Position numbers and translations under genes: made by a program. The notes beneath the pieces are model-generated. The model ran no database searches. It worked only from the letters and a program-made list of their open reading frames with translations, and was not told the DNA's origin. Below are positions 3,739 through 40,509 of a stretch of DNA of 43,385 bases, in pieces (positions within the stretch are counted from its first letter, which is position 1; every line of letters begins with the position of its first letter). The stretch is from Acidobacteriota bacterium (GTDB lineage Bacteria; Acidobacteriota; Thermoanaerobaculia; Gp7-AA8): the NCBI GenBank assembly GCA_003223635.1, contig QHVS01000110.1, forward strand, positions 1 through 43,385, written 5' to 3'.

Positions 3739-4907
3739 AGCTACCGAAAGGGTTTCTCGCGTCCGGCGTTCGCGCTGGCATTCGAAAGAAGCGTCCGGAC
3801 CTCGGCTTGATCGTCGCCGAGGGGGGCGCAAACGCCGCGGCGGTCTTCACGAAGAATCGCTTTCAGGCCGCGCCGGTCGTCCTTTCCAAATCGTCGCTGA
3901 AGAGGAGCGGCGGACGGGTGAAGGCAGTGGTGGTCAACGCCGGATGTGCGAATGCCGTCACCGGGAAGGAAGGGCTGGACGCGGCGAAGCGCGTGCGCAC
4001 GCGCGCCGCAGCCCTGCTGCGATGCGACGCCGACGAGATCTTTCTGGCTTCTACCGGCGTGATCGGCGTGGTCCTGCCCGATAAGAAAGTGCGAGAAGCG
4101 TTACCCGATTCGATCGCCAGGCTGTCGCAGGGCGGCATCGACGCGCTGTCACACGCCATCCTCACCACCGATGTCGGCCCGAAGGTGACGCAGGCGACGT
4201 TCATGATCGGCGGCAAGCGAGCGCGCATCGTCGGCGTGGCGAAAGGGGCGGGGATGATTCATCCGAACATGGCCACGATGCTGGCCTTCGTCATGACCGA
4301 CGCGGCGATCGCTCCCGCCGTTCTTCAACGTGCGCTCAAAGAAGCGGTCGATCAGAGCTTCAACGCGATCTCTGTCGATGGCGACACTTCGACCAACGAC
4401 TGCGTGCTGGTGATGTCCAGCGGCAAGGCTGGGAACGCGCAGAGCGCCGACAGCACCGAGTTTCAACGCGCGCTCAACACGGTTTGCCGTCAGCTGGCGT
4501 GGATGATCGTCCGCGATGGCGAAGGGGCCACAAGAGTGATGGAGTTGGAGGTACGCGGCGCGCGCAGCGAACGCGATGCCCGGCTGGCTGCGCATGCCAT
4601 CGCCACGTCGCCCCTGGTGAAGACTGCGCTGCATGGCGGCGATCCGAACTGGGGACGCATCCTGGCCGCGGTCGGACGCAGCGGCGCACGATTCTCCATC
4701 CGCAGAGTCTCGCTCAGCGCCGGCCCCATCGCCCTCGTCCGCGACGGCAGCGCCGTCGAGTATCGCGAGAAGGACGCCGCGCGCATCTTCGCCCGCGAGC
4801 GCGTGCCCCTCACGCTCGACCTGGGCGGGGGGAATGGGCGGGTGGTGGTGCTGTCTTCGGATCTCGGTCACGACTACGTGTCGCTGAACGCGGACTACCG
4901 GTCGTAG
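3735..4907 (+). CDS. argJ: bifunctional ornithine acetyltransferase / N-acetylglutamate synthase
   Basis: 390 aa. LPKGFLASGVRAGI N-terminus, autoprocessing site PNMATMLAFVMTDA, ATGA overlap with argH. Confidence 0.93.
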   Translation: MKLPKGFLASGVRAGIRKKRPDLGLIVAEGGANAAAVFTKNRFQAAPVVLSKSSLKRSGGRVKAVVVNAGCANAVTGKEGLDAAKRVRTRAAALLRCDADEIFLASTGVIGVVLPDKKVREALPDSIARLSQGGIDALSHAILTTDVGPKVTQATFMIGGKRARIVGVAKGAGMIHPNMATMLAFVMTDAAIAPAVLQRALKEAVDQSFNAISVDGDTSTNDCVLVMSSGKAGNAQSADSTEFQRALNTVCRQLAWMIVRDGEGATRVMELEVRGARSERDARLAAHAIATSPLVKTALHGGDPNWGRILAAVGRSGARFSIRRVSLSAGPIALVRDGSAVEYREKDAARIFARERVPLTLDLGGGNGRVVVLSSDLGHDYVSLNADYRS

Positions 4908-4956
4908 TGGAGCGGCGGCCTTTAGGCCGCCGGCGGGCTGAAGCCCGCCGCTCCAC
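4907..4956. repeat. GC-rich nested palindrome with three mutually overlapping helices
   Basis: The outer 12-bp helix pairs GTGGAGCGGCGG (4907-4918) with CCGCCGCTCCAC (4945-4956). One inner hairpin is CGGCGGCC-TTTA-GGCCGCCG (4913-4932). A second is CGGCGGGC-TGAA-GCCCGCCG (4931-4950). GTAG tetranucleotides lie at 4904-4907 and 4963-4966. Confidence 0.8.
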
Positions 4957-6681: not shown

Positions 6682-8049
6682 ATGAATCTGAGCAAGAACG
6701 AGCTCCTTGCGTTCGCCCGAGGCGAACGGGAGCGCTTCGAGCGCACGCTGCGGCAATTCGTCGAGGTTCCGACAGTCTCCTCAGAGCCGGAGCGGCAGCC
6801 GGACATCCGCCGCTGCGCCGATCTGGCCGCACAGACCATTCGCGAATTCGGAGGCGAGGCGCGGATCCTGGAGACCGCGGGAAATCCGATCATTCACGGC
6901 CGCTTTGATCAGAACAGCGGCGGTCCAACCGTCACCATCTACAACCATCTCGATGTGCAGCCCGCCTCGCGAGAGACGGAACCTTGGGATTCCGATCCGT
7001 TCACCTTCACCAGGAACGGCGACCGCTATTACGGCCGCGGGACGACCGACGACAAGGGCCCGGCGCTCACTGCGCTGTGGGGCGTGCGCGCAGCGCGCGA
7101 GGCCGGCGTTCCGATCAACATCAGCGTGCTGTGGGAGCTCGAAGAAGAGATCGGCTCGCCGAATTTCGAAGCGGCGATGAAAGAGAACGCCAACCAGCTC
7201 GCCACCGACTCGGTGATCGTTTCCGACACCATCTGGGTGGCCCGCGATCGACCGGCCTGTCCGGCCGGATTGCGCGGGCTGTTTGGATTCGAGCTGATCC
7301 TCGAGACAGGGGAGACCGATCAGCACTCCGGCGTGACCGGCGGCGCAGCGCGGAATCCCATCGGCGAGCTGATGAAGCTCGTCTCAGAGATGTATGACGC
7401 ATCGACAGGAAAAGTGAAGATCAAAGGGTTCTACGATGACGTCGAGAAGCCATCGAAGGCGGAGTTGAAGGAGTTCGCCGCGTCCGGTTTCTCCGTCAAG
7501 AAATTCAAGAAGGATCATCTTTTCAAGTCGATTCGCACCGAAGATCCGATGGAGGTGATGAAACGGATCTGGGCCACGCCGACCATGGAAGTGCACGGCC
7601 TGGTCGGCGGCTATACCGGTCCGGGGATCAAGACGATCATTCCGCCGCGCGCGGCGGTGAAAATCTCCTGCCGCGTCGTTCCGAATCAGGATCCGAAGAA
7701 GATCGGAAAGCTCATTCGCGACTTCGTGAAGAAGCACAACCCCGACGTAAAGATGGTGGAAGAATCGTCGATGATGCCGTACAAGGCGCCCACCACCGGC
7801 CCGCTCGCCGATGCCGTGCGCAGCGCGATGAAGTTTGCCTTCGGACGTGAGCCTGTGTTCGTGCGCGAAGGCGGCTCGATCGGCGCCGTGATCTCCATGG
7901 AGCGTTACCTCCGCTGCCCTGTCATGTTCCTCGGCCTCTCCCTGCCCGAGCACGGGTACCACGCGCCGAATGAGAACTACGACTGGCAACAGGCCAGCGG
8001 CGGGATGGCCGCCTTCGCGAAGTACTTCGAGGAAGTGGCCGCGCTGTAG
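6682..8049 (+). CDS. M20A family metallodipeptidase (CNDP/Dug1/PepV-like)
   Basis: 455 aa. Carries HLDVQPA, YGRGTTDDKGPAL and WELEEEIGSPN, which are typical M20 metal-ligand regions. Confidence 0.8.
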   Translation: MNLSKNELLAFARGERERFERTLRQFVEVPTVSSEPERQPDIRRCADLAAQTIREFGGEARILETAGNPIIHGRFDQNSGGPTVTIYNHLDVQPASRETEPWDSDPFTFTRNGDRYYGRGTTDDKGPALTALWGVRAAREAGVPINISVLWELEEEIGSPNFEAAMKENANQLATDSVIVSDTIWVARDRPACPAGLRGLFGFELILETGETDQHSGVTGGAARNPIGELMKLVSEMYDASTGKVKIKGFYDDVEKPSKAELKEFAASGFSVKKFKKDHLFKSIRTEDPMEVMKRIWATPTMEVHGLVGGYTGPGIKTIIPPRAAVKISCRVVPNQDPKKIGKLIRDFVKKHNPDVKMVEESSMMPYKAPTTGPLADAVRSAMKFAFGREPVFVREGGSIGAVISMERYLRCPVMFLGLSLPEHGYHAPNENYDWQQASGGMAAFAKYFEEVAAL

Positions 8050-8090
8050 ATTCCCCCTCGCACCTATCCTGAGGTCTCCCTGTCGAGATG

Positions 8091-8124
8091 GTGGAAATTT
8101 GTGGACAGAAGTGGCGATAAGTGG
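8091..8124 (+). promoter_or_regulatory. candidate MraZ operator: four GTGG boxes at exact 10-bp phasing
   Basis: Four consecutive decamers each start with GTGG: GTGGAAATTT GTGGACAGAA GTGGCGATAA GTGGTAAAAA (8091, 8101, 8111, 8121). They sit 40-60 nt upstream of mraZ in an AT-enriched patch. MraZ is known to bind 10-bp-phased direct repeats in its own promoter. Confidence 0.5.
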
Positions 8125-8164
8125 TAAAAACACACATTGAATCGGTTAAAAACGGGCCTTCTTA

Positions 8165-8628
8165 ATGGAACTCAGTGTCTTGATGGGGCATGCCCCCGCT
8201 CGCGTCGACGACAAGGGACGCTTGAAGGTCCCGGCGGATTTCCGCAAGTTCATTGAAGAACGATACGGCTCCGACTGCTTCATGACTGCTTCATTATCTC
8301 CATGGACGGAGAACGCGCGCTGATCTATCCGATGCCGGTCTGGAACGATTTCCAGGGAGGGCTGGCGAAAGTCCCATCAACGTCGATGGCCAAATCCAAG
8401 CTGCTGGAGCGGGCGAATTACTACGGACAGGCGGCGACGATCGACGGGCAAGGACGGCTGCTGATCCCCACTGTGCTCCGCGAAATCGCCGGGATCGCAG
8501 AAGACGTGGTGGTCCTGGGCAACACCGATCACCTGATCGTGTGGAACGAGGAGCGGATCCAGAAGCGACTGGCGAAGAGTCCGTTGAGCGCGGAGGACAT
8601 GAAGGAGTTGGAGCTGCACGGAGTGTAG
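8165..8628 (+). pseudogene. mraZ: mraZ (dcw transcriptional regulator) interrupted by a +11 frameshift
   Basis: The N-terminal half (ATG 8165 or 8183) reads ...GHAPARVDDKGRLKVPADFRKFIEERYGSDCF and stops at TGA 8321. The C-terminal half is ORF 8302..8628 (MDGERALIYPMPVWNDF...GRLLIPTVLRE...) in another frame. Removing one copy of the 11-bp duplication restores a single 145-150 aa MraZ. Confidence 0.8.
8273..8294 (+). repeat. perfect 11-bp tandem duplication GACTGCTTCAT x2
   Basis: Read directly: 8273-8283 is identical to 8284-8294. Confidence 0.95.
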
Positions 8629-8702
8629 TTGCTGAGTTGCTTGGTTGCTAGGTTGCTGGACGGGTGGGACTGAGCAACCCAACAACCAAGTAACCCAGCG
8701 AC
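8628..8702 (+). repeat. intercistronic octamer-built hairpin (mraZ|rsmH)
   Basis: Left arm is GTTGCTGA GTTGCTTG GTTGCTAG GTTGCTGG (8628-8659). Right arm is GAGCAACC CAACAACC AAGTAACC CAGCGACC (8672-8703). Hand pairing of 8628-8657 with 8673-8702 gives 25 WC pairs, 2 GU pairs and 3 mismatches. Confidence 0.85.
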
Positions 8703-8704
8703 CG

Positions 8705-9625
8705 ATGATCCACGATCCAGTTCTTTTACAACCGGTTGTCGATTACCTCCGCCCCAATCGCGAAGACGGAACGCTCGTCGATGCGACGGTAGGGTTGGGT
8801 GGGCACGCGGAGGCGCTGTTGGAGCGCTATCCGCGGGCCCATCTGGTGGCCATCGATCGCGATCCGCGCGCGCTGAAGCTCGCGCGAGAGCGGCTGGGGA
8901 GGTTCGGAAGTCGCGTGACGTTCGCGCAGGGACGTCACGAGTCGCTCATTGACATTCTGAAGCAGTCAAACCTCGAGACCATCAGCGGCCTCGTGGCCGA
9001 CCTCGGCGTCTCCTCGATGCAGCTCGACGACGCGTCGCGCGGATTTTCCTTCCGCCTCGACGCGCCGCTCGACATGCGGATGGGGCCTGACAGCACGACG
9101 GCGGCAACGCTGGTCAACGGCCTCGAGGAACACGAGCTGGCGCGGATCCTCCGCGAATACGGCGAGGAGCCGATGGCCCGGCGCATCGCACGAGCGATCG
9201 TCGAGGCGCGGCAGAGCGCTCCGATCGAGACGACCGGACAGCTCGCGGCGATCGTGCGCGGTGTAAAGAAGTCAAAGCCCCGCGACATTGATCCCGCCAC
9301 GCTGACCTTTCAGGCGCTTCGCATCGCGGCGAATGAGGAGCTGGTCGGACTGGACCGCTTCATCGACGACGCGGTGAGCGTCCTCGAAAGCGGCGCACGA
9401 ATCGCGGTGATCTCGTTCCACTCGCTCGAGGATCGAATCGTCAAACGCGCGCTGCGGCGGCTGAAAGGCGAATGCACCTGTCCGCCCGGCATGCCGGTCT
9501 GCGGATGCGGGGCGAAGGATCTGGTGAGTGTGTTGACAGGACGTCCGGTGACTGCTTCGGAAGACGAGGTGAATCGAAATCCGCGATCGCGCAGCGCCAA
9601 GCTGCGCGTCGCAGAAAAGAAGTAA
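8705..9625 (+). CDS. rsmH: 16S rRNA (cytosine1402-N4)-methyltransferase
   Basis: MIHDPVLLQPVVDYL start at ATG 8705. DATVGLGGHAEALL SAM motif, DLGVSSMQLD, FHSLEDRIVK. The 20 codons upstream in ORF 8645 translate the repeat element. Confidence 0.9.
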   Translation: MIHDPVLLQPVVDYLRPNREDGTLVDATVGLGGHAEALLERYPRAHLVAIDRDPRALKLARERLGRFGSRVTFAQGRHESLIDILKQSNLETISGLVADLGVSSMQLDDASRGFSFRLDAPLDMRMGPDSTTAATLVNGLEEHELARILREYGEEPMARRIARAIVEARQSAPIETTGQLAAIVRGVKKSKPRDIDPATLTFQALRIAANEELVGLDRFIDDAVSVLESGARIAVISFHSLEDRIVKRALRRLKGECTCPPGMPVCGCGAKDLVSVLTGRPVTASEDEVNRNPRSRSAKLRVAEKK

Positions 9626-9643
9626 GGCGGAGCCAGGCAGCAA

Positions 9644-9716
9644 GGGTGAAGGTTGGGGAAGGGTGGGTGTGGCGCGGTGAGCGGGGGCTCGGGAGGGGTG
9701 GAGCGTGGGGGGTGGG
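9644..9716 (+). other. G-run-dense tract (G-quadruplex-prone) in the rsmH-ftsL spacer
   Basis: Nine runs of at least three G in 73 nt on the sense strand, with only six C. Includes GGGGAAGGGTGGG and GGGGGCTCGGGAGGGGTGGAGCGTGGGGGGTGGG. Confidence 0.8.
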
Positions 9717-9792
9717 TGGACGTGGACGCTGCTCGTTGCCGTGCATGTAGGCAAATCTTCACCCTTGTTCCCGGGCTCCGCGCGGCCATGGA

Positions 9793-10167
9793 ATGTACGC
9801 CCAAAAAAGACCGATCGACAACGCTCACATCGTCCGCGAACGCGACCGCCAGCGATTCCGTGAGCTCCTCGCCCTCTTAGGCCTGGGCATTCCGATCGGA
9901 CTGTTCCTTCTCCTCTTCACCTGGCAGAACCTCGAGGTCATCCGGCTGGGCCACGAGGCGACGCGTCTGCAGAAGCAGCGAAAAGACATCGAGAACGCAA
10001 ACAAAGTTCTGCAGTACGAGCTCGACCGCCTGACATCGCTGCATTCGGTCGAGCAGAAGGCGACTGCACTCGGCTTCGAGCGAACCGATCCGCGCGTGGT
10101 GGTGATGGTACAAAAGCCCGCGGACCACAGGCCGCGGCCCGCGGACCGCGACAGGACCCGGCGATGA
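9793..10167 (+). CDS. ftsL: cell division protein FtsL
   Basis: 124 aa. Single TM segment (LALLGLGIPIGLFLLLF) followed by a coiled-coil-like segment. Canonical position between rsmH and ftsI, with ATGA overlap with ftsI. Confidence 0.7.
   Translation: MYAQKRPIDNAHIVRERDRQRFRELLALLGLGIPIGLFLLLFTWQNLEVIRLGHEATRLQKQRKDIENANKVLQYELDRLTSLHSVEQKATALGFERTDPRVVVMVQKPADHRPRPADRDRTRR
10119..10153 (+). repeat. degenerate tandem heptamer array (CGCGGAC type)
   Basis: Units are CGCGGAC CACAGGC CGCGGCC CGCGGAC CGCGACA. They encode the FtsL tail PADHRPRPADRDR and end 10 nt before the ftsI ATG. Confidence 0.55.
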
Positions 10168-12116
10168 CGACTCCGCAGCGGCGTTTGCTGCAGCTGTTCG
10201 CGTTCCTCTCCGTGTGGACGCTGGTCGTCGTCGGGCGGCTGCTGCAGGTGCAGATTCTCCGTCACGACGACTACGTGGCCCGTGCACAGCGGCAGCAGGA
10301 ACGAACTCTGACTCTGAGCCCGGTGCGCGGATCGATCCTCGATGTGCACAACCGCGTGTTGGCCGAGAGTGTCGCGGCCGAATCGATCTACGCCGATCCC
10401 CAGGCCATCGTCGACCGCCGGGCGACGGCGAAGGCGTTGGTCACGATCAAGGAGCTCGGCGTCACGGCGAGCGACATTCAGGAGAAGCTCGGCGGCGACG
10501 GAGGCTTCGCCTGGATCGCGCGGCAGGTGCCTCTGGAGATCAGTGCCAGGGTGCGCGCGCTTCGCCTCCCGGGCATCTATTTTCTGGATGAGCATCGACG
10601 CGCCTACCCGCGTGGAATGCTCGCGGCAAACGTCATCGGCTATGTTGGAGTCGACGGCGCCGGCCTGGGTGGAATCGAGCATTCGTACGACAGCTATGTC
10701 CGTGGCCGCCCCGGTCGCGTGACTCTCCTGCGCGACGCGCGGCGCGGCGTCTACCTCGTCGGTGGCGAAGGGGCCAATCGGGCCATCGACGGGAACCACG
10801 TCGTGTTGACCATCGACGCGGTCGTTCAATTCATCGCCGAGCGTGCGTTGGCCAAAGCGGTGAACCGCTGGCAAGCGGCCGGCGGCTCAGTGATCGTCCT
10901 CGATCCGAGCGACGGCGCGGTGCTGGCGATGGCTTCGGTTCCCTCGTTTGATCCGAACCGGTTTCGCGATTTTCCGCCGGAGCGATGGCGCAACCGCAAT
11001 GTGCAGGACATCTACGAGCCGGGATCGACCTTCAAGATCGTCACCGCCGCGGCCGGCCTGGAGGAAGGCATCGTCACCCCGTCGGAGGTGATCAACTGCG
11101 GCGACGGCGTGATCCGCATCGCCAACAACGACATCCACGAGGCGGGCGGAAGCCGCTACGGCTTCATCACCTTCGAAGACGTGATGGTGCATTCCTCGAA
11201 CGTCGGCGCCGTGCGCGTCGGCCTGGCTCTGGGGCAGGGGAGATTTTTCCGCTACATCCGGCGCTTCGGATTCGGCGACCGCACCGGAATTCAACTTCCC
11301 GGCGAAACGCCGGGGCTGGTCCGGCGCACGGAGCGCTGGTCGCAGCTCTCCAACGCCAGCATCGCCATCGGACAGGAAGTGGGCGTTACCCCGCTGCAGA
11401 TCGCAGCCGCGACGGGGGCCGTGGCAAACGGCGGCATTCGCGTGGTCCCTCGCATTGTCGACCGTGTTGAAAATACGAAGGGCGAAATCGTCTATCGTCC
11501 GCCCCGCCCCGAGCCGATGCGCATCATCTCTGAAAAAACCGCGGCGGTGCTCAACGAGATCCTCAAAGCGGCGGTCAGCCGAGGAACGGGAGTGGGGGCG
11601 GGGCTGCCCGAGCACGTGGTGGCCGGCAAGACAGGAACGGCGCAGAAGGCCATCCGCGGCGGATATTCTCCTGACCGATTCATCTCGTCGTTCGCCGGAT
11701 ACGTTCCGGCGGATCGCCCTCGTCTGGTCATTCTGGTGGTGATCGATGAGCCGAAAGACGATCAGTACGGTGGCACGGTGGCCGCCCCCGTCTTCAAGGA
11801 TATCGCCGAGGCGACTCTGCGCTACTTCGGCGTGCCGCCGTCGATTCCCGCCCGGACGATGGACATCGGCTCGTCGCTGGCCGCGATTTCGCAAGAGTCT
11901 GGCAGCGACGAGCGGGCGTTGAGCGGCGGGCGGCGAGCGGGCGTTCCCGATCTGCGGGGCCTCGACGCGCGCGCGGCGGTCGCCAGCGCCACGGCCGCCG
12001 GATTTCGCGTCCGTGCGCTCGGGAGCGGCGTGGTCCAATCACAACTTCCTCTGCCGGGTGACGTGTTGCCGGAAAACCGTCTTCTGACCTTGCGTTTCGC
12101 GGAGGTCGCGCGATGA
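10164..12116 (+). CDS. ftsI: peptidoglycan D,D-transpeptidase FtsI (class B PBP) with C-terminal PASTA domain
   Basis: 650 aa. Motifs STFK (EPGSTFKIV), SSN (HSSNVG) and KTGT (GKTGTAQ). The C-terminal VPDLRGLDARAAVASATAAGFRVRALGSGVVQSQLPLPGD is PASTA-like. Confidence 0.9.
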   Translation: MTTPQRRLLQLFAFLSVWTLVVVGRLLQVQILRHDDYVARAQRQQERTLTLSPVRGSILDVHNRVLAESVAAESIYADPQAIVDRRATAKALVTIKELGVTASDIQEKLGGDGGFAWIARQVPLEISARVRALRLPGIYFLDEHRRAYPRGMLAANVIGYVGVDGAGLGGIEHSYDSYVRGRPGRVTLLRDARRGVYLVGGEGANRAIDGNHVVLTIDAVVQFIAERALAKAVNRWQAAGGSVIVLDPSDGAVLAMASVPSFDPNRFRDFPPERWRNRNVQDIYEPGSTFKIVTAAAGLEEGIVTPSEVINCGDGVIRIANNDIHEAGGSRYGFITFEDVMVHSSNVGAVRVGLALGQGRFFRYIRRFGFGDRTGIQLPGETPGLVRRTERWSQLSNASIAIGQEVGVTPLQIAAATGAVANGGIRVVPRIVDRVENTKGEIVYRPPRPEPMRIISEKTAAVLNEILKAAVSRGTGVGAGLPEHVVAGKTGTAQKAIRGGYSPDRFISSFAGYVPADRPRLVILVVIDEPKDDQYGGTVAAPVFKDIAEATLRYFGVPPSIPARTMDIGSSLAAISQESGSDERALSGGRRAGVPDLRGLDARAAVASATAAGFRVRALGSGVVQSQLPLPGDVLPENRLLTLRFAEVAR

Positions 12117-13600
12117 AGCTGCGCGATCTGCTCCAGGGTGTGCCTGTGCGCTCCTCGCAGGGAAATCTCGATGCGGAGATCACGGCCGTGGTGGGCGATT
12201 CGCGCCTGGCTGTTCGCGGCTCGCTCTTTGTGGCCATTCGTGGCATGCAGCAGGACGGCGCGAAGTTCGTCGACTCCGCGGTGGAAAAGGGGGCGATCGC
12301 CGTGGTCAGCGATCACCCGCTCGCCACTCGCCGTTCGCCGCCGGCATGGGTGGAGGTGGAGGATGCCCGCTCCGCACTGGCTCTGATCGCTGCCAACTTC
12401 TACGGGCACCCGGCGGACAAGCTGACCCTTGTCGGGGTCACCGGAACTTCAGGGAAGACGACCACCACGAAGATGCTCGAGTCGATCTTCGACGCGGCCG
12501 GCGAGCCGGTGGGGTTGATCGGGACGATCGAGTATCGCGCCGGCGAGGAGAGGTTGGTCGCCGATCGCACCACGCCCGATGCCGTCGTGCTGCAGCAGTG
12601 GTTTGCCAAAATGGTGGCCGCCGGCGTCAAGCACGCGGTCATGGAAGTCTCCTCGCACGCCCTGGCCCTGAAGCGGACCTACGGGATTCAGTTTGGCGCG
12701 GCGGTGTTCACGAACCTCTCGCAGGACCACTTCGATTTTCACAAAGGCTTCGAAGATTACTTCGCCGCGAAGAAGAGCCTGTTCGATCAGATCGATCGCA
12801 AGCGCCGGACCGCGGTCGTCAATATCGACGACGAGTACGGCCGGCGTCTGGCCGGCGAACTGAAAAAAGCGGTCATCTCGTTCGGCCGCTCGCCCAAGGC
12901 CGACATTCGCCCGGCCGATAAATTCGCCATCGACGTGCGCGGCCTGCGCGGCCGCGTCCACACGCCGGCAGGCGACATTCGCGTGGAGTCGCGACTTCTC
13001 GGCCTGCCGAACCTCTACAACTGGATGGCCGCCATCGGCGCCGCGGTGGCGGTGGGCATCCCGCGCAAAGCCATCGAAACGGGGATCCGCAATCTCGCCT
13101 CCGTGCGCGGCCGGTTCGAATATGTGGAATCCGCGGGCGGCCCCACGGTGATCGTCGACTACGCGCACAAACCTGACGCGCTGGAGAAGCTGCTTCACGC
13201 GGTACGCGATCTCGCGGCGAAGAAGCGCCTGGTGCTCGTCTTCGGCTGCGGCGGAGATCGAGACAAGGACAAGCGGCCGATGATGGGCGACATCGCCGGC
13301 CGGCTGGCCGACTTCACCGTGCTGACCAGCGACAATCCGCGGAGCGAGAACCCCGACTTCATCATCGACGACATCGAGAAGGGCATCCGCCGAGGAACGT
13401 ACGTGCGGATGACCGACCGGCGCGAGGCAATCGCCCGGACGATCGACGAGGCGTCCGATGATGACGTCATCGTGATCGCCGGGAAAGGTCACGAGAGCTA
13501 CCAGGTGGTGGGCGATCAGATCATTCACTTCGATGATCGGGAGGAAGCGGAATTCGCCCTGAAAAAGAGGCATGAAAAAGTAGCACCGAAAACAGGTTGA
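12113..13600 (+). CDS. murE: UDP-MurNAc-L-Ala-D-Glu:meso-DAP ligase
   Basis: 495 aa. GVTGTSGKTTT P-loop and LTSDNPRSENP (DNPR motif, indicating meso-DAP specificity). dcw context. Confidence 0.93.
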   Translation: MKLRDLLQGVPVRSSQGNLDAEITAVVGDSRLAVRGSLFVAIRGMQQDGAKFVDSAVEKGAIAVVSDHPLATRRSPPAWVEVEDARSALALIAANFYGHPADKLTLVGVTGTSGKTTTTKMLESIFDAAGEPVGLIGTIEYRAGEERLVADRTTPDAVVLQQWFAKMVAAGVKHAVMEVSSHALALKRTYGIQFGAAVFTNLSQDHFDFHKGFEDYFAAKKSLFDQIDRKRRTAVVNIDDEYGRRLAGELKKAVISFGRSPKADIRPADKFAIDVRGLRGRVHTPAGDIRVESRLLGLPNLYNWMAAIGAAVAVGIPRKAIETGIRNLASVRGRFEYVESAGGPTVIVDYAHKPDALEKLLHAVRDLAAKKRLVLVFGCGGDRDKDKRPMMGDIAGRLADFTVLTSDNPRSENPDFIIDDIEKGIRRGTYVRMTDRREAIARTIDEASDDDVIVIAGKGHESYQVVGDQIIHFDDREEAEFALKKRHEKVAPKTG

Positions 13601-13608
13601 AATTGAGC

Positions 13609-13638
13609 TTGATATTGATGACAACATCAGCTTATGAT
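13609..13638 (+). promoter_or_regulatory. candidate sigma70-like promoter TTGATA-N18-TATGAT in the murE-murF spacer
   Basis: Hexamers read at 13609-13614 and 13633-13638 inside an AT-rich island (about 13558-13650). This is a motif match only. Confidence 0.3.
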
Positions 13639-13783
13639 TTGGCGCACTGGAAACGGTGCTCTCTCCCGGCTCCGTCGGTCAGTTTCAGCGTGGGTGTGTG
13701 GACGGTGATCGCGGGGCAGTCCCGGGGGAAGGGATGCGATCGCCGTTGTGGAAGCGCGGCGGGGCCGGGAGAGAACATCGCAG

Positions 13784-13811
13784 GTCGCGGATCGCGGATC
13801 GCGGATCGCAG
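13784..13811 (+). repeat. tandem heptamer array GTCGCGG ATCGCGG ATCGCGG ATCGCAG
   Basis: Four consecutive 7-nt units read directly. They end 9 nt before the murF ATG (13821). Confidence 0.9.
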
Positions 13812-13820
13812 AGGGCAGCC

Positions 13821-15200
13821 ATGCCCACCATGACTTTCAAGCAACTCGCCGAGATGACGAACGGCGAGGTCGTTCAGAATCCCGATCTCACCGTCTCCTC
13901 GGTGGTCATCGACAGCCGCGAAGTGAAGCCGGACTCGGTCTTCTTCGCCATCAAGGGCGATCGCCTGGATGGACATCAATTCCTTCCCCAGGCTCTGCAG
14001 ACGGCGCGGGGCGCCGTCGTGGCTCGCGTTCCCGAATCACTGCCGCGCGACAAAGGCACGGCACTGCAGGAACTGGCGCATTCGATTCGCCAGCGTTACA
14101 AATTCCTGTTGATCGCCATCACCGGCTCAGCAGGCAAGACCACGACGAAGGAGATGATCGCCGCATTGGTCGGCACCGAGCGGCGCACCTGGAAGTCGTG
14201 GGGCAACTTCAACAATCTGATCGGTGCACCCCTCTGCCTGGACAACATGCCGGACGATGCTGAAGTGGTGGTCAGCGAGATGGGCATGAACCACAAAGGC
14301 GAGATCGCCACGCTGGCCGGCCTCACGCATCCCGATGTCGGCGTCTACACGAACATCGGACCGGTGCACATCGAGTTCTTCGGAACGATCGAGAAGATCG
14401 CCGAGGCGAAACGGGAGTTGCTGGAGAATGTGAAGCCCGACGGCACGATCGTTCTGAACGTCGACAACGACTACGTGATGAACATCAGCCGCGGCTTTCC
14501 AGGGCGAAAGGTGACGTACGGCATCGATCGTCCGGCGGACTTTCGCGGCACCGACGTCCGCGACCGCGGCCTGCTGGGGACCGCCTTCGAGCTGGACGGA
14601 CGTTCCTTCGAGCTCTCGCTCCCGGGGCGGCACAATCTGGAGAACCTTCTGGCCGCGATCGCCACCGCGCGTTCCATCGGTATCTCCTGGGAAGGGATCG
14701 AGCGCGGTGTGCGCGAGGTGAAGCCGGCCTACCACCGCGGCGTGATCCTTCCTCTGCGCGGCGCGACGATCTACGACGATACCTACAATTCCAACCCGTA
14801 CGCTCTGGCCCGCGCCATCCAGCTCCTGGAGCAGGCGGACGTGCGCGGAAGGCGAGTTGCCGTGATCGGCGACATGCTCGAGCTGGGGCCACGCGAGCGC
14901 GAATATCACTATGAAGTCGGCCGGCGCACCACGCCCGAGAGCATCGATGTCGTGATCGCCGTCGGCCCTCGCAGCGAGGCGCTGCTGGAAGGGGCGCGTC
15001 ACTCCGGCTTCGGCGACGACCGCCTCTATCACTTTGCGGACGCCGAGCGCGCCGGCGCATTCCTGCAGTCGTTCATCCAGCCCGGCGATCTGGTCTTGAT
15101 CAAGGCCTCGCGCGGCATCGGTCTCGATAAGATCGTAACGATGCTGCAGTCCGACCAGCGACACGCGACCAGCGACCAGCCGGTGGGGGAGCGGGGCTGA
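13821..15200 (+). CDS. murF: UDP-MurNAc-tripeptide:D-Ala-D-Ala ligase
   Basis: [18 protein letters not shown] is a typical MurF N-terminus. [14 protein letters not shown]-loop is present. The 55 codons upstream in ORF 13656 cross the repeat and spacer and look non-coding. Confidence 0.9.
15152..15179 (+). repeat. tandem heptamer array CGACCAG CGACACG CGACCAG CGACCAG
   Basis: Four consecutive 7-nt units in the last codons of murF (peptide [11 protein letters not shown]). They end 20 nt before the mraY ATG (15200). Confidence 0.9.
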
Positions 15201-16288
15201 TGCTGTATTACCTCCTCTATCCGCTCCGCAACGTGATCTCCGGATTCAACGTCTTCCGGTACATCACCTTCCGGACGGCGTGGGCGGCGCTCACCGCGCT
15301 GGTCATCTGCTTCATCCTCGGGCCGTGGCTGATCGAGCGGATGCGGCAGATCAAGCTCGGGCAGTTCATCCGCGAAGAGGGGCCGAAATCACATCAGCAG
15401 AAGGCGGGGACGCCGACGATGGGCGGCATCCTGATCAACGTGGCCATCCTCATCCCCACGCTGTTGTGGGCGGACATCCTCAACCCGTACATCTGGATCG
15501 TTCTCTTCGTCACGTTCGCCTATGGAACGATTGGTTTCATCGATGACTATCAGAAGCTGGCCAAGAAGAGAAACCTCGGCCTGACGGCGAAACAGAAGTT
15601 CACCATACAGTTCGGGGTGGCTCTGGCCGCCGGCCTGGCCATCGCCTATCTGCCCAGCATCCACAACAACTACTCCACCGTGCTGACGTTTCCTTTCTTC
15701 AAGACGCTCCACGTGAATCTCGGATTTCTGTATATCCCGTTCATCATGATCGTGATTGTCGGCGCATCGAACGCCGTCAATCTGACGGATGGTCTCGATG
15801 GGTTGGCCATCGGCACCACGCTGATCGCGGCGGTCACCTACACGATCCTGACCTACGCGGCAGGGAACTTCCGCGTGGCCGACTATCTGCGCATTGCCTG
15901 GGTGCCGCAGGCCGGAGAGCTGGCCGTGTTCTGCGGCGCCATGGTCGGGGCCTCGCTCGGATTTCTCTGGTTCAACGCGCATCCGGCAGAGATTTTCATG
16001 GGCGACGTCGGATCGCTGGCCCTGGGCGGAGCGATCGGCTGCCTGGCGGTGATGATCAAGCAGGAGATTCTGCTCATCTTCGTCGGCGGACTGTTCGTCG
16101 TCGAGGCGGCTTCGGTGATCATCCAGGTGGCTTCATTCAAGCTGACCGGCCGCCGCGTCTTCAAGATGTCGCCGCTGCATCACCACTTCGAGCTCTCCGG
16201 CTGGCGGGAGACGAAGGTGGTGGTTCGGTTCTGGATCATCGCAATCATCTTTGCGTTGTTGAGTCTTTCGACTTTGAAACTGAGATGA
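15200..16288 (+). CDS. mraY: phospho-N-acetylmuramoyl-pentapeptide transferase
   Basis: 362 aa polytopic protein. [13 protein letters not shown] and HHHFE motifs. TGATG overlap with murF. Confidence 0.95.
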
Positions 16289-17595
16289 GGCTACTCGTGG
16301 TGGGAGCGGGCAAATCGGGCGTGGCTGCAGCAAACTTCCTCGCGGAGCGGGGCGAGGACGTTGCCATCAACGATCGCAATCCGTATCCCGATCTTCCCTA
16401 TCCGCTGCACGAACGGGTGACCAGGCTGTTCGGTCAGCAGGACGAGTCTCTTCTCACCGGAGTGGAGTCGGTCATCGTCAGCCCGGGCGTTCCGCTCGAC
16501 GTACCGCTGCTCCGGCACGCTGCGTCGATGCGCATTCCGGTCATCGGCGAGATCGAGCTGGCGTTCCGTCATCTCAAAGGAACGGTCATCGCCATCACCG
16601 GCTCCAACGGCAAGTCGACGACGACGGCCCTGATCGGCGAGATCCTCAAAGTCGCCGGCCGTCAGCCGATCGTGGCCGGCAACATCGGCGAACCGCTGAT
16701 AGCAGCGATCGATCAGGAGAAGCCGCGGACCTACGTGCTGGAGCTTTCGTCGTTTCAACTGGAGACAGTTGACGCGTTCCGGGCGAATGTCGCGCTTCTT
16801 TTGAACATTACGCCCGACCACATGGACCGCTATCCGAACTTCGACGCCTACGCGGCAACAAAGTATCGGGTCCTCCGCAATCAGCAGGCCAGTGACACGG
16901 CGATCGTGAACGCCAGCGAACGTCGTGCTGTCGATCGGGGGTCCCATGCTCGCCTGTGGCGCTTCTCCGCATCGGAGAAGGTGAATGAAGGTGCCTGGCT
17001 GGATGGCGACCAGATGGTCTTGAGCATCGGCGGCGAAGAGCGGCGCATACCGCGTTCTGCGTTGAAGCTGGAAGGGCTGGCGAACGTGGAAAACGCTCTG
17101 GCCGCATGGCTTGCCGCGCGCGCGGTGGGCGTCGATGACGTGGCGGTGCAGATCGCGTTCGGATCGTTCCGAGGGCTGCCGCACCGGATGGTGATGGTGC
17201 GGGAGAAGGGCGGCGTTCGTTACGTCAACGACTCGAAAGGGACGAACGTCGACGCCACGCTCAAATCGCTGGAAAGTTTTCCCCCGTCCAGCGTGCTGCT
17301 GATCCTGGGAGGCAAAGACAAAGCGGGTGAGTTCGAGCGGATGCGCGATCTCATTGCGGAGAAGACACGCTACGTGATCACCATCGGCGCCGCCGCGGAT
17401 CGCATCTCCAGCGCGCTGGAGGGCTCGGCGACCATCGTTCCGATGGGCGATATGGAGCGCGCGGTGCGCTGGGCGTCGGAACATGCCAAAACCGGCGACA
17501 CGGTGCTCCTCTCGCCGGCCTGCGCCAGCTTCGATCAGTACAAGAACTTCGAGCATCGGGGACAACATTTTGAGGGGTTGGTGAGGAGGTTGTGA
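16285..17595 (+). CDS. murD: UDP-MurNAc-L-Ala:D-Glu ligase
   Basis: 436 aa. [15 protein letters not shown] Rossmann N-terminus and [12 protein letters not shown]-loop. ATGA overlap with mraY. Confidence 0.93.
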
Positions 17596-17671
17596 GTTGC
17601 TCGGTTGCTAGGTAGCTGAGTTGCTGGGTGTTTCGCCTGGCAACCGAGCAACCTAGCAACTGAGGAACCCA
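17593..17671 (+). repeat. intercistronic octamer-built hairpin (murD|ftsW), paralogue of 8628-8702
   Basis: Left arm is GAGTTGCT CGGTTGCT AGGTAGCT GAGTTGCT. Right arm is GGCAACCG AGCAACCT AGCAACTG AGGAACCC. Lower stem 17593-17617/17647-17671 has 21 WC pairs, 1 GU pair and 3 mismatches. Upper stem 17620-17628/17636-17644 has 7 WC and 2 GU pairs, with a 7-nt loop. Confidence 0.85.
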
Positions 17672-17676
17672 GGAAC

Positions 17677-18774
17677 ATGAGCCGCAAACTCTCATATGAC
17701 ACGTGGTTATTCGCCGCTGCGCTGCTGATCGTGGTCATCGGCCTGGTGATGATCTACAGCGCCTCGGCCATCATCACCACGCAGAAAGTCGGCTTGGACA
17801 ATCCGTACTACTTCATCACCCGTCAGTGCATCTGGCTGCTCGGCGGAAGCGCGCTGATGCTGATCCTGATGCATGTCGATCTGAGCCGGCTGCGCGATCG
17901 TCGCGTGATCTACGCGGCGATGGGCGTCCTGGGGATTGCCCTGGTGGTGGTGCTGTTCCAAACACCGGTGAACGGAACACACCGCTGGATCGTGTTTCCC
18001 AGCTTCCGGCTGCAGCCGAGCGAATTCGCGAAGCCGGTGATCGTGCTGTTCCTCGCTTCGTTCCTCGCCCGGCGCGAGAGCCGGATCAACGAGGTCACCT
18101 CGACGCTGCTGCCGCTCGGTTTCACGATCGCCGTGTTCGCGGGACTCATCCTCATCGAGCCCGATTTCGGCACCGCGGCGACGCTGGTGCTGGTCACAGC
18201 GGGGATGGTGTTCGCCGCCGGCATCGCCTGGAACCGCGTGGCCATCTTCTCGCTGATGGTGATTCCCGCGGCGGCCATGGTGGCCTTCAGCGCGGCGTAT
18301 CGACGCGATCGACTCTTCACGTTTCTCAATCCGGAGGCCGATCCACTGGGCAAGGGTTTTCAGGCCATGCAGTCGCTGATTGCGCTCGGAACCGGCGGCC
18401 TGCACGGATTGGGCATCGGCAACGGGCGGCAGAAACTGTTCTTCCTGCCCGAGCCGCACACGGATTTCATCTTCTCCATCATCGGCGAGGAACTGGGGTT
18501 CATCGGCGCCTTCGGGCTGATCGCGCTCTTCGCGTTTCTGGTGTGGCGCGGCTACCGCGTGGCGCGTTTCAGCCAGGAGCGCTTCGACTACTACGCGGCG
18601 CTCGGATTCACTCTGATGATCGCCGTGCAGGCCTTGATCAACATCAGCGTGGCATTGTGCCTTCTTCCGACGAAGGGGCTACCGCTGCCGCTGGTCAGCT
18701 ACGGCGGCTCCTCGCTGACGACCAGCCTGATCGCGGTCGGCATGCTGCTGAATCTCTCGCAACAATCGGGCTGA
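17677..18774 (+). CDS. ftsW: SEDS peptidoglycan glycosyltransferase FtsW
   Basis: 365 aa polytopic protein. SEDS-family motifs (RLQPSEFAKP, EPHTDFIFSIIGEELGF, PLPLVSYGGSS). Position between murD and murG. Confidence 0.9.
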   Translation: MSRKLSYDTWLFAAALLIVVIGLVMIYSASAIITTQKVGLDNPYYFITRQCIWLLGGSALMLILMHVDLSRLRDRRVIYAAMGVLGIALVVVLFQTPVNGTHRWIVFPSFRLQPSEFAKPVIVLFLASFLARRESRINEVTSTLLPLGFTIAVFAGLILIEPDFGTAATLVLVTAGMVFAAGIAWNRVAIFSLMVIPAAAMVAFSAAYRRDRLFTFLNPEADPLGKGFQAMQSLIALGTGGLHGLGIGNGRQKLFFLPEPHTDFIFSIIGEELGFIGAFGLIALFAFLVWRGYRVARFSQERFDYYAALGFTLMIAVQALINISVALCLLPTKGLPLPLVSYGGSSLTTSLIAVGMLLNLSQQSG

Positions 18775-18784
18775 GGACAATCAC

Positions 18785-19882: not shown

Positions 19883-19910
19883 ACTCTGTAATTAGCAAGC
19901 CACTATACGA

Positions 19911-22114: not shown

Positions 22115-22125
22115 GAGCAGGTCAA

Positions 22126-23358: not shown

Positions 23359-23388
23359 CAGCGACAACAATTCGACGGGAGACGGTAC

Positions 23389-33997: not shown

Positions 33998-36585
<2,588 letters not shown>

Positions 36586-40438: not shown

Positions 40439-40509
40439 GAATGTTAAATGTTAAATGTTGAATGTTGAATCTGACTTTTTTCGAACTTCGAAATTCGAAC
40501 TTCACGAAC
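40439..40509. repeat. two adjacent AT-rich tandem heptamer arrays
   Basis: The first array is GAATGTT AAATGTT AAATGTT GAATGTT GAATCTG (40439-40473). The second, after the spacer ACTTTTTT, is CGAACTT CGAAATT CGAACTT CACGAAC (40482-40509). Both lie in the spacer between the dehydratase stop and the rarA start. Confidence 0.85.

What the first reader, a model, noticed from the sequence alone, without database searches (positions are those of the whole stretch)
8628..8702. Octamer-built hairpin fills the mraZ|rsmH gap from stop codon to start codon
The element begins at the last base of the mraZ stop (TAG 8626-8628) with four tandem GTTGCTNN octamers. A 12-nt spacer follows, and then four NNGCAACC-type octamers that end 1 nt before the rsmH ATG (8705). 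Hand pairing gives a 30-position stem (25 WC, 2 GU, 3 mismatches) with a 15-nt loop. The structure would bury the whole rsmH translation-initiation region, and no SD is visible. Because the arms are internally periodic, they can also pair in shifted registers (slippery helix).
Basis: seen in the sequence. Interest (0 to 1): 0.7.

Follow-up and report, generated by a model that had tools for sequence, protein, structure and literature searches.

The report
Repeat-built hairpin filling an operon junction
The hairpin between mraZ and rsmH is real, but it is one copy of a fast-changing, dispensable family of hairpins built from 7-8-base repeats that fill gene junctions in Thermoanaerobaculia genomes, much like the heptamer-repeat hairpins known from cyanobacteria.

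Summary
Four GTTGCTNN octamers (8628-8659), a 12-nt spacer and four mirrored octamers (8672-8703) fill the gap from the mraZ stop (8626-8628) to the rsmH ATG (8705). The RNA folds at -46.7 kcal/mol (z = -6.0).

It is not unique. A second copy fills the murD|ftsW gap (17596-17676), and a heptamer version lies at 35088-35145. A scan of reference genomes finds GTTGCTNN arrays mostly in Thermoanaerobaculia and other Acidobacteriota. Copies share the unit but not loops or lengths. Most lie between same-strand genes, a median 9 nt after the stop and 14 nt before the start.

The element is dispensable. Relatives with 94-97% identical RsmH carry 27 nt of direct heptamers, or those heptamers plus an inverted arm. 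More distant relatives have 2-18 nt. Where the hairpin is kept, pairing is maintained by compensatory, unit-wide changes. Wobble mismatches show no bias towards the sense strand.

Best reading: a repeat palindrome of the cyanobacterial STRR kind, made in place by slippage and template switching. It is tolerated because the stem loops out and keeps the stop, an SD-like GGAG and the AUG together. That last step is inferred. It is a new variant of a known kind, of moderate interest.

The parts
8165..8628 (+). mraZ. In this contig it is split into two ORFs (8165-8323 and 8302-8628) by an 11-bp tandem duplication. The stop is TAG at 8626-8628.
   Evidence: Both ORFs hit Pfam MraZ. TRF reports GACTGCTTCAT x2 at 8273-8294. 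Relatives have a single copy and an intact 150-aa MraZ.
8620..8623 (+). SD-like GGAG inside the last mraZ codons, 4 nt 5' of the stem base.
   Evidence: Sequence. With the stem 8628-8702 looped out, 4 + 2 = 6 unpaired nt separate it from ATG 8705. In the free RNA it is predicted to pair with UCC 8709-8711. Its use as an SD is inferred.
8628..8659 (+). Left arm: four tandem GTTGCTNN octamers.
   Evidence: (TRF period 8, 4.0 copies).
8660..8671 (+). Spacer ACGGGTGGGACT, the core of the 15-nt loop.
   Evidence: It differs at 3 of 12 positions from the 98% relative L204, while the arms differ at 1 of 64.
8672..8703 (+). Right arm: four NNGCAACC-type octamers, mirror of the left arm.
   Evidence: Of 30 stem positions, 25 are Watson-Crick, with G-U wobbles among the other five.
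8705..9625 (+). rsmH (16S rRNA m4C1402 methyltransferase), ATG at 8705.
   Evidence: Pfam Methyltransf_5, E = 3.6e-108. P0001 is 100% identical over 306 aa.
17583..17589 (+). GAGGAGG at the murD 3' end, the likely SD of ftsW, now 5' of the second hairpin.
   Evidence: Sequence. In the hairpin-free relative L002 the homologous GAGGGA lies 6 nt from the ftsW ATG. With the stem 17593-17671 looped out, 3 + 5 = 8 nt remain.
17596..17676 (+). Second copy of the same octamer hairpin. It fills the murD (stop 17593-17595) | ftsW (ATG 17677) gap.
   Evidence: I3: 32-nt arms, 81% complementary. MFE is -59.2, z = -6.3.
35088..35145 (-). Third periodic-arm hairpin, built from GCGAGCA heptamers. It lies between a FecR-domain gene and mreB on the minus strand.
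   Evidence: I1: 26 nt, 100% complementary. (-69.6 kcal/mol, z = -10.4). for the flanking genes.

Best explanation
The element is one copy of a lineage-specific family of palindromes whose arms are short tandem arrays of 7-8-nt units. Here the unit is GGTTGCTN. The family is scattered through genomes of Thermoanaerobaculia (Acidobacteriota).

Origin (inferred). Copies arise and change in place at very short intergenic junctions. Replication slippage adds or removes units. Template switching between the arms, as in quasipalindrome correction, creates the inverted arm and keeps it complementary. This would explain why copies share a unit and an architecture but not loops, lengths or flanks.

Effect (inferred). 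The element is transcribed within the dcw operon mRNA and folds into a hairpin of about 30 bp. The stem base brings together the mraZ stop codon, an SD-like GGAG in the last mraZ codons, and the rsmH AUG. A ribosome finishing mraZ would melt the basal pairs and free the AUG. The insertion therefore preserves the translational linkage that hairpin-free relatives achieve with a 2-3-nt gap. On this view it is a tolerated, self-maintaining passenger with at most a modulating effect, not an essential regulator.

Shown: the structure, the family, its distribution, its dispensability, its in-place turnover, and the maintenance of pairing. Inferred: the mutational mechanism and the translational consequence.
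For: Structure:
- z = -6.0 for this copy and -6.3 for the second.

Family:
- A second copy lies at murD|ftsW and a heptamer version at 35088.
38 come from Thermoanaerobaculia and 12 from other Acidobacteriota, including at least 8 loci of the single chromosome OY970284.1.
- My detector finds 53 periodic-arm hairpins in those loci. They carry many different units, and their loops are unrelated.
- Density is 72 per Mb in unbiased loci of this lineage, against about 10 per Mb in other bacteria.

Context:
- 33 of 44 classifiable copies lie between co-directional genes. Median distances are 9 nt from the stop and 14 nt to the start.
- In 24 tight junctions only 5 have an SD core after the hairpin, while 13 have one within 22 nt before it. 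About 46% of genes in relatives have an SD core.

Dispensability and turnover at this junction:
- 76-nt hairpin in the window and L203-L205.
- 27 nt of direct GTTGTCG heptamers only in L201, L207 and L212.
- The same heptamers plus inverted GACAACT x3 in L213.
- Small palindromes of 8-18 nt in L215, L208/L214 and L206.
- 2-3 nt in L210 and L002-L004.
- 4-fold divergence between the hairpin-bearing and hairpin-free relatives is only about 10%.

Maintenance of pairing:
- Across six orthologues, 91.1% of cells are paired and 7 pairs changed on both sides. No shuffle of 500 reaches the covariation score, and slid controls give 17-49% paired.
- In L218 and L221 the units changed from GTTGCT/AGCAAC to GTTGTT/AACAAC in both arms.
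- The arms differ at 1 of 64 positions, against 10.4% at 4-fold sites.

Strand test:
- Sense-strand G-U versus A-C mismatches are 25 versus 32 (p = 0.43). This gives no sign of selection on the sense RNA alone and fits a DNA-level process.

Precedents:
- Template switching homogenises inverted-repeat arms (PMC7202029, PMC8604942).
- Hairpins that bridge SD and AUG are known from T4 genes 25 and 38 (PMC3014915).
- Cyanobacterial 7-bp-repeat hairpins lie between hupS and hupL (PMC2670836).
Against: - The arms evolve more slowly than 4-fold sites, and pairing is kept by compensatory change. Selection for a function of the hairpin would predict the same, so a real regulatory role is not excluded.
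- The same two junctions carry the same unit type in two clades that share only about 71% amino-acid identity (window clade and L001 clade).
- The mraZ|rsmH loops of those clades look alike: ACGGGTGGGAC, ATGGATGTGAC and GTGGGCGTAAC. This suggests long retention or a strong site preference, neither of which a purely neutral model predicts.
- A second, more distant lineage also has periodic hairpins of unrelated units at mraZ|rsmH.
- rsmH has no convincing SD in any relative, so the bridged-SD argument is weaker for rsmH than for ftsW.
- The G-U/A-C test has low power (57 mismatches).
- There are no expression data.
Confidence: 0.6

Rival explanations
1. The element is a dedicated post-transcriptional regulator of the dcw operon. 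The hairpin masks the rsmH initiation region, so that RsmH is made only when mraZ is translated, or it is an RNase III or RNase E target. Either way it would set the MraZ:RsmH ratio. The second copy would do the same for ftsW.
For: - The stem runs from stop to start. The basal extension pairs GGA 8620-8622 with UCC 8709-8711 and part of the AUG.
- Pairing is kept by compensatory changes, and the arms are more conserved than 4-fold sites.
- Hairpins recur at this junction in several lineages.
- A stem of about 30 bp is long enough for RNase III (own knowledge).
Against: - It is absent from relatives with 94-97% identical RsmH and from most other relatives, whose operons are otherwise identical.
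- In the same operon a truly conserved RNA structure in the rsmH|ftsL spacer is kept in all nine lineages. Functional RNAs here are therefore not lost easily.
- Family members are spread over co-directional, divergent and convergent gaps (33, 6 and 5). By my estimate this is roughly the share of each gap type in bacterial genomes generally.
- There is no sense-strand wobble bias.
Confidence: 0.2
2. The element is a miniature mobile element, of the REP/REPIN, MITE or IS200/IS605-derived palindrome type. A transposase would insert it at stop/start junctions.
For: - High copy number restricted to one lineage, with the same unit at many loci.
- Presence or absence differs between close relatives.
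- GTAG precedes the palindrome in the window copy (8625-8628), as in GTAG-tagged REPs (PMC3733652).
Against: - Copies share only the 6-nt core. Loops, unit numbers and lengths all differ.
- Comparison of filled and empty sites shows no target duplication and no clean boundaries.
- Intermediate states at the same site (direct array only; direct array plus short inverted array) point to growth in place.
- GTAG is missing from the second copy and from L001.
Confidence: 0.1
3. The element works at the DNA level. It would be a cruciform, or an array of 8-bp sites bound by a protein, acting in replication, recombination, chromosome structure or transcription.
For: - Both DNA strands fold equally well.
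- Mismatches show no strand bias.
- The motif is conserved across species.
Against: - An 8-bp period does not match the helical repeat of DNA.
- Many unrelated units show the same architecture, which argues against one sequence-specific binding protein.
- No promoter-like site lies in or next to the element.
Confidence: 0.06
4. The element is an intrinsic terminator or attenuator that separates mraZ from the rest of the operon.
For: - A strong stem lies directly after a stop codon.
- The unrelated heptamer hairpin of L004 at murD|ftsW is followed by T6.
Against: - No T-run follows either window copy. The stem is followed by CG-ATG and by GGAAC-ATG.
- The terminator scan finds nothing at the element.
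- Terminating before rsmH, or before ftsW, would cut off the essential cell-division and cell-wall genes further down the cluster (own knowledge).
Confidence: 0.03

Closest known systems
Cyanobacterial STRR (short tandemly repeated repetitive) sequences, in particular the 7-bp-repeat hairpin between hupS and hupL in Nostoc, Anabaena and Lyngbya (PMC2670836)
   Same: - Short tandem units are dispersed over many intergenic sites of one lineage.
- Some arrays are followed by their inverted copy, giving a hairpin between two co-transcribed genes.
- The function is unknown. The proposals there are also transcript stability or translational coupling.
   Different: - The phylum differs (Acidobacteriota, class Thermoanaerobaculia).
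- The dominant unit is an octamer, GGTTGCTN, alongside many heptamers.
- Here the hairpin form fills the whole stop-to-start gap, and its turnover between near-identical strains is documented.
- I found no report for this lineage.
TAACTGA heptamer direct repeats of Beggiatoaceae, cyanobacteria and some Bacteroidetes (PMC4679880)
   Same: - Heptamer arrays are almost all intergenic.
- Most lie upstream of a start codon, and the largest class ends 1 nt before it.
- One motif is shared across species.
   Different: - Those are direct repeats chosen for lack of structure. Only one inverted case is reported.
- Here the defining feature is the mirrored second arm and a very stable stem.
REP / BIME / REPIN extragenic palindromes (PMC3116915, PMC3733652)
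   Same: - Abundant, lineage-specific intergenic palindromes.
- Often found inside operons, with effects on mRNA.
- Present or absent between strains.
   Different: - REPs have a conserved full sequence of 20-40 nt and a GTAG or CGTC head, and they go with RAYT transposases.
- Here the arms are internally periodic, only the unit is conserved, and the length varies from 50 to 180 nt.
Split translation-initiation regions bridged by a hairpin (phage T4 genes 25 and 38; PMC3014915)
   Same: - An SD-like motif lies 5' of a stable hairpin and the AUG just 3' of it.
- Folding reduces the spacing to 6 nt for rsmH and 8 nt for ftsW.
   Different: - The T4 hairpins are short, giving 22-27 nt of linear spacing, and have been tested by mutation.
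- Here the looped-out segment is 75-80 nt, the SD use is untested, and this describes a consequence rather than the family the element belongs to.

Membership tests
STRR-type repeat hairpins (cyanobacteria) | Tandem units of about 7 nt, dispersed at many intergenic loci of a genome | tested here: met
   Units are 7-8 nt. There are three hairpins plus further arrays in the 43-kb window. At least 8 loci of one chromosome hold the octamer array. 53 periodic hairpins were found in the fetched loci.
STRR-type repeat hairpins (cyanobacteria) | An array plus its inverted array forms a hairpin between co-transcribed genes | tested here: met
   mraZ|rsmH and murD|ftsW in the window. 33 of 44 copies lie between co-directional genes.
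STRR-type repeat hairpins (cyanobacteria) | Cyanobacterial host and the canonical STRR heptamers | tested here: not met
   The host is an Acidobacteria MAG whose relatives are named Thermoanaerobaculia. The unit is GGTTGCTN.
REP / REPIN | The whole palindrome sequence (20-40 nt) is conserved among copies | tested here: not met
   Copies differ in loop, unit number and length (53-181 nt). Only the unit core is shared.
REP / REPIN | GTAG or CGTC tetranucleotide at one end | tested here: not met
   GTAG is at 8625-8628 in this copy only. The second copy has GTGA and the L001 copies have TTGA and CTAG.
REP / REPIN | An associated RAYT (Y1) transposase in the genome | not tested
   Only 8-20-kb pieces of the genomes were available. 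No whole-genome protein search was possible.
MITE | Terminal inverted repeats, a target-site duplication, and a conserved internal sequence | tested here: not met
   Filled and empty sites were compared at both junctions. There is no duplication, and intermediate repeat states occur at the same site.
Intrinsic terminator | A G+C-rich stem followed directly by a run of U | tested here: not met
   No T-run follows 8703 or 17676. The scan reports no site at the element.
Any Rfam family | A match to a curated covariance model | tested here: not met
   No hit at gathering score in the window. Only one sub-threshold match (E = 0.085, 25.3 bits against a gathering score of 90), well away from the hairpins, in 8000-18000 at E up to 1.
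Hairpin-bridged split initiation region (T4 gene 25/38 type) | SD 5' of a stable hairpin, AUG 3' of it, and 5-11 nt spacing once folded | tested here: inconclusive
   The geometry fits: GGAG 8620-8623 gives 6 nt, and GAGGAGG 17583-17589 gives 8 nt.

The most novel reading that the evidence does not exclude
Thermoanaerobaculia, and perhaps other Acidobacteriota, may have a specific and possibly enzyme-assisted process that builds repeat-armed hairpins at stop/start junctions. The cell would then use them as operon punctuation. Such structures would hold stop, SD and AUG together, or act as processing sites, and so tune the output ratio of neighbouring genes such as mraZ and rsmH. This would explain four things: the recurrence at the same junctions in clades only 71% identical, the similar loops, the unit-wide compensatory change, and the arms that evolve more slowly than synonymous sites.
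Probability: 0.18. Interest if true: 0.75.

Novelty: new variant of a known kind. Interest (0 to 1): 0.5.

Why it matters
- If the family is as common as the sampled loci suggest (about 70 per Mb), a Thermoanaerobaculia genome of about 6 Mb holds several hundred such hairpins. Many would sit exactly between a stop and the next start.
- That affects gene-start calling. Here a mechanical TTG ORF reads through the hairpin, and one relative's RsmH is annotated 10 residues too long.
- It may also affect assembly and strain typing.
- The series of states at one junction (direct array, array plus short inverted arm, full hairpin, nothing) among strains about 10% diverged at silent sites is a natural record of how palindromic repeats are born and lost.
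- It also gives a natural test of how much insertion a translationally linked gene pair tolerates when the insert folds out of the way.
- It extends the unexplained heptamer-repeat phenomenon of cyanobacteria and Beggiatoaceae to a third phylum. This points to a general cause rather than a cyanobacterial oddity.

Tried and rejected
- The metagenome scan with RsmH was swamped by a universally conserved peptide pattern. It gave only four close relatives, so closer ones had to be fetched one at a time.
- My first three gene callers based on GC3 missed murD or picked antisense shadow ORFs. The version was used. It is still crude, so the context counts are approximate.
- The first register calculation (first half) was off by one base. 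One search replaces it.
- Rfam gave nothing, and the promoter/terminator scan gave nothing at the element.
- Literature searches for such repeats in Thermoanaerobaculia or Acidobacteria found nothing relevant.
- The test for sense-strand wobble bias, meant to separate RNA-level from DNA-level maintenance, showed no signal (25 versus 32).
- I considered and dropped the following: CRISPR-like array (no unique spacers between repeats); coding repeat (the period of 8 is not a multiple of 3, and TGA or TAG appears in shifted frames); MraZ operator (the MraZ-box-like GTGG repeats lie upstream at 8091-8124 and are unrelated); assembly artefact (the same element occurs in independent assemblies).
- The taxon of the second lineage with hairpins at mraZ|rsmH (L005, L009, L012, L014, L046) was not determined.

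Full report
**What is in the sequence.** The window is a whole 43,385-bp contig of an Acidobacteria MAG. Its closest named relatives are Thermoanaerobaculia. Positions 8165-24666 hold a dcw cluster running from mraZ through rsmH, ftsL, a PBP, murE, murF, mraY, murD and ftsW to further division and cell-wall genes. The mraZ stop is TAG at 8626-8628. Four GTTGCTNN octamers follow (8628-8659), then a 12-nt spacer (8660-8671), four mirrored NNGCAACC-type octamers (8672-8703), one G, and the rsmH ATG at 8705. The arms 8628-8657 and 8673-8702 are 25 of 30 complementary, with 15 nt between them. As RNA the region folds at -46.7 kcal/mol, against -27.5 +/- 3.2 for shuffles (z = -6.0). As DNA both strands also fold better than every shuffle.

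**It is not unique.** The same octamer builds a second hairpin that fills the murD|ftsW gap, from the stop at 17593-17595 to the ATG at 17677. It folds at -59.2 kcal/mol with z = -6.3. A perfect 26-bp hairpin made of GCGAGCA heptamers lies at 35088-35145. Other 7-mer arrays are scattered through the window.

I scanned one genome per species for GTTGCTNNGTTGCTNNGTTGCT. Of these, 38 come from Thermoanaerobaculia and 12 from other Acidobacteriota, including at least 8 loci of the single chromosome OY970284.1. Several of the other hits, for example in Burkholderiales and Bacteroidia, are matches spaced exactly 24 nt apart, which look like a different kind of repeat. A detector for hairpins with periodic arms found 53 of them in these loci. 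Most are built from GGTTGCTN. Others use unrelated units such as AACGATG, AACCAGA, AATGCAG, AGTGATC and TTCGCGCC. Some are nested one inside the loop of another. Copies share the unit and the architecture, but not loops, unit numbers or lengths. In loci that were not selected by the pattern, the density is about 72 per Mb in this lineage, against about 10 per Mb in other bacteria.

**Where copies sit.** Gene calls here come from a crude GC3-based caller, so the numbers are approximate. Of 44 classifiable hairpins, 33 lie between co-directional genes, 6 in divergent gaps and 5 in convergent gaps. By my estimate that is roughly the usual mix of gap types. The median distance is 9 nt from the upstream stop and 14 nt to the downstream start. 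Filling the whole stop-to-start gap is therefore a property of the family, not of mraZ|rsmH.

**Comparison with relatives.** The mraZ|rsmH spacer was read in 20 related contigs. Percentages are RsmH identity to the window unless stated otherwise.

| Relatives | Identity | Spacer |
|---|---|---|
| L203-L205, three independent assemblies | 98% | same 76-nt hairpin |
| L201, L207, L212 | 94-97% | 27 nt of direct GTTGTCG heptamers, no inverted arm (MFE -6) |
| L213 | 96% | same heptamers followed directly by GACAACT x3, a loop-less 48-nt hairpin (-26 kcal/mol) |
| L206, L208/L214 | 86-87% | small palindromes of 17-18 nt |
| L215 | 91% to L001 | 8 nt that are the reverse complement of the last mraZ bases |
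| L210, L002-L004 | 73-80% | 2-3 nt |

All these relatives have an intact operon, and wherever mraZ is complete on the contig it encodes a 150-151-aa MraZ. The murD|ftsW gap behaves the same way. It holds an octamer hairpin in the window, L203, L001 and L221, and an unrelated GATCAGC heptamer hairpin in L004. It is 7-16 nt or an ATGA overlap in L201, L206, L208, L210, L215 and L002. Silent-site divergence between the window and either L203 (hairpins present) or L201 (hairpins absent) is about 10%. Whole elements therefore come and go on that time scale.

**Pairing is maintained where the element is kept.** I aligned the six orthologous mraZ|rsmH hairpins of the window clade and the L001 clade. 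91.1% of cells are paired, and seven pairs changed on both sides. No shuffle of 500 reaches the observed covariation score, and slid controls give 17-49% paired. In L218 and L221 the units changed from GTTGCT/AGCAAC to GTTGTT/AACAAC in both arms. Between the window and L204 the arms differ at 1 of 64 positions and the loop at 3 of 12, while 4-fold sites differ at 10.4%.

Either selection on the hairpin or a process that copies one arm onto the other could produce this. Mismatches in 33 oriented copies show no excess of sense-strand G-U over A-C (25 versus 32, p = 0.43). There is thus no sign that the sense RNA alone is the selected object, although the test is weak. By contrast, the rsmH|ftsL spacer of the same operon holds a structure of about 155 nt conserved in all nine lineages compared. 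This shows what a retained RNA element looks like in these genomes.

**How it most likely arises (inferred).** One junction shows several states: a direct array, a direct array plus a short and more uniform inverted array, a full hairpin, tiny palindromes, and a spacer that is the reverse complement of the preceding coding bases. These fit growth in place, with replication slippage adding or removing units. Template switching between nearby inverted sequences would create and homogenise the second arm. That mechanism is documented for quasipalindromes in E. coli and yeast (PMC7202029, PMC8604942). Comparison of filled and empty sites shows no target-site duplication and no shared internal sequence, which argues against a MITE or a REP.

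**What it most likely does (inferred).** No SD lies between the hairpin and the ATG. An SD-like GGAG lies at 8620-8623, inside the last mraZ codons. With the stem looped out it is 6 nt from the ATG. At murD|ftsW the motif GAGGAGG (17583-17589) would be 8 nt from the ATG. In the hairpin-free L002 the homologous GAGGGA lies 6 nt from the ftsW ATG. In 24 tight junctions of the family, only 5 have an SD core after the hairpin and 13 have one just before it. About 46% of genes in relatives have an SD core.

This is the geometry of the hairpin-bridged initiation regions of T4 genes 25 and 38 (PMC3014915). In the free RNA a weak basal extension pairs GGA 8620-8622 with UCC 8709-8711, and pairs A8705 and U8706. 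A ribosome ending at the mraZ stop would open that extension. My reading is that a self-complementary insert is tolerated at such junctions because it keeps the stop, the SD-like motif and the start together. The caveat is that rsmH has no clear SD in any relative, so for rsmH the argument rests on proximity and re-initiation rather than on an SD.

**What remains odd.** The window clade and the L001 clade share only about 71% amino-acid identity and are not sisters. Yet both carry the octamer hairpin at the same two junctions. Their mraZ|rsmH loops also resemble each other: ACGGGTGGGAC, ATGGATGTGAC and GTGGGCGTAAC. A more distant lineage (RsmH about 50-55% identical, taxon not determined) also has periodic hairpins of unrelated units at mraZ|rsmH in some members and none in others. 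Three explanations are possible: long retention with many losses, a strong site preference, or selection for some hairpin at this junction. The native coding ends GAGTTGGAGTTGC and GGTTGGTGA resemble the unit and could seed a site preference. I cannot tell these explanations apart.

**Comparison with known systems.** The closest known kind is the cyanobacterial STRR. These are dispersed 7-bp tandem repeats that form a hairpin between hupS and hupL in several genera. Their function is unknown, and the proposals are transcript stability or translational coupling (PMC2670836). Heptamer direct repeats ending 1 nt before start codons are also known in Beggiatoaceae and cyanobacteria (PMC4679880).

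The present family differs in four ways. The phylum is different. The dominant unit is an octamer. The hairpin form is frequent. Its turnover between close strains is documented here. It fails the defining tests for REP/REPIN, MITE, intrinsic terminator and every Rfam family. I found no description of it in the searchable literature. That library is incomplete, so an earlier report cannot be excluded.

**Verdict.** The structure is real and far beyond chance. The reading as a special device of the mraZ|rsmH junction is only partly supported. It is a member of a lineage-wide, rapidly evolving, dispensable family of repeat-built palindromes. It is best classed as a new variant of the STRR/REP kind of element. 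Its probable effect is passive and coupling-preserving, and a regulatory role is not excluded. Interest is moderate (0.5).

Noticed in passing
window 8273-8294: A perfect 11-bp tandem duplication (GACTGCTTCAT x2) shifts the frame of mraZ and splits it into two ORFs (8165-8323 and 8302-8628). Relatives L204, L201 and L212 have one copy and an intact 150-aa MraZ. It is either a real slippage mutation in this population or an assembly error.
   Followed up: partly
window 8091-8124: GTGG occurs four times at an exact 10-nt period (8091, 8101, 8111, 8121), about 40 nt upstream of the mraZ ATG at 8165. From my own knowledge of the E. coli MraZ operator, this looks like MraZ-binding direct repeats.
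   Followed up: no
window 9626-9792 (rsmH|ftsL spacer); also L001-L004, L201, L206, L208, L210: A G-rich structure of about 155 nt is conserved in nine lineages down to about 71% protein identity. It has 47 predicted pairs, 7 of them with compensatory changes, and a nearly invariant closing stem GCAAGGGTGAAGGTT / AATCTTCACCCTTGT. It has no Rfam match. It is a candidate leader or cis-regulatory RNA of ftsL, and looks more like a conserved functional RNA than the hairpin under study.
   Followed up: partly
window 13601-13871 (murE|murF spacer): The spacer is long, about 270 nt by comparison with gene calls in relatives. It holds a stem (13654-13677 with 13757-13780) that recurs in L001, followed by an ATCGCGG x4.7 array at 13777-13812. 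L001 has a CAGACAGC periodic hairpin at the matching place. The mechanical GTG ORF starting at 13656 probably overcalls murF.
   Followed up: partly
window 40440-40503: Two adjacent heptamer arrays, AATGTTA x4.4 and TTCGAAC x3.4, are not complementary and do not fold (z about -0.4). They lie between an mgsA-like gene and a PLP-enzyme gene. In L170 the unit AATGTTG forms a true hairpin.
   Followed up: partly
window 4907-4956: A twin-hairpin palindrome (GGCGGCC..GGCCGCC and GGCGGGC..GCCCGCC inside an outer stem) fills the gap between two plus-strand genes. It folds at -55.5 kcal/mol with z = -7.2. Its arms are not periodic.
   Followed up: no
L123 5749-5929, L192 7178-7333, L142 4483-4664: Nested periodic hairpins. 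A GGTCTCGC-type or CTCCGCGT-type repeat hairpin sits inside the loop of a GGTTGCTN hairpin.
   Followed up: no
L005, L009, L012, L046, L014 (upstream of rsmH); L006, L007 lack it: A more distant lineage (RsmH about 50-55% identical, GC 55-59%, taxon not determined) also has periodic hairpins of unrelated heptamers (GTGAGCA, CAGTAGG, CGTAAAT, GTGAAAA) between the mraZ stop and a conserved block GTTCTTTGAACGAGATCACGGGGCGGTGGTGATGG that precedes rsmH.
   Followed up: partly
L215 9985-10000: The 8-nt mraZ|rsmH spacer ACACTCCG is the reverse complement of the last mraZ bases GGAGTGT. This gives a tiny hairpin with the stop codon in its loop, and looks like a template-switch product.
   Followed up: no
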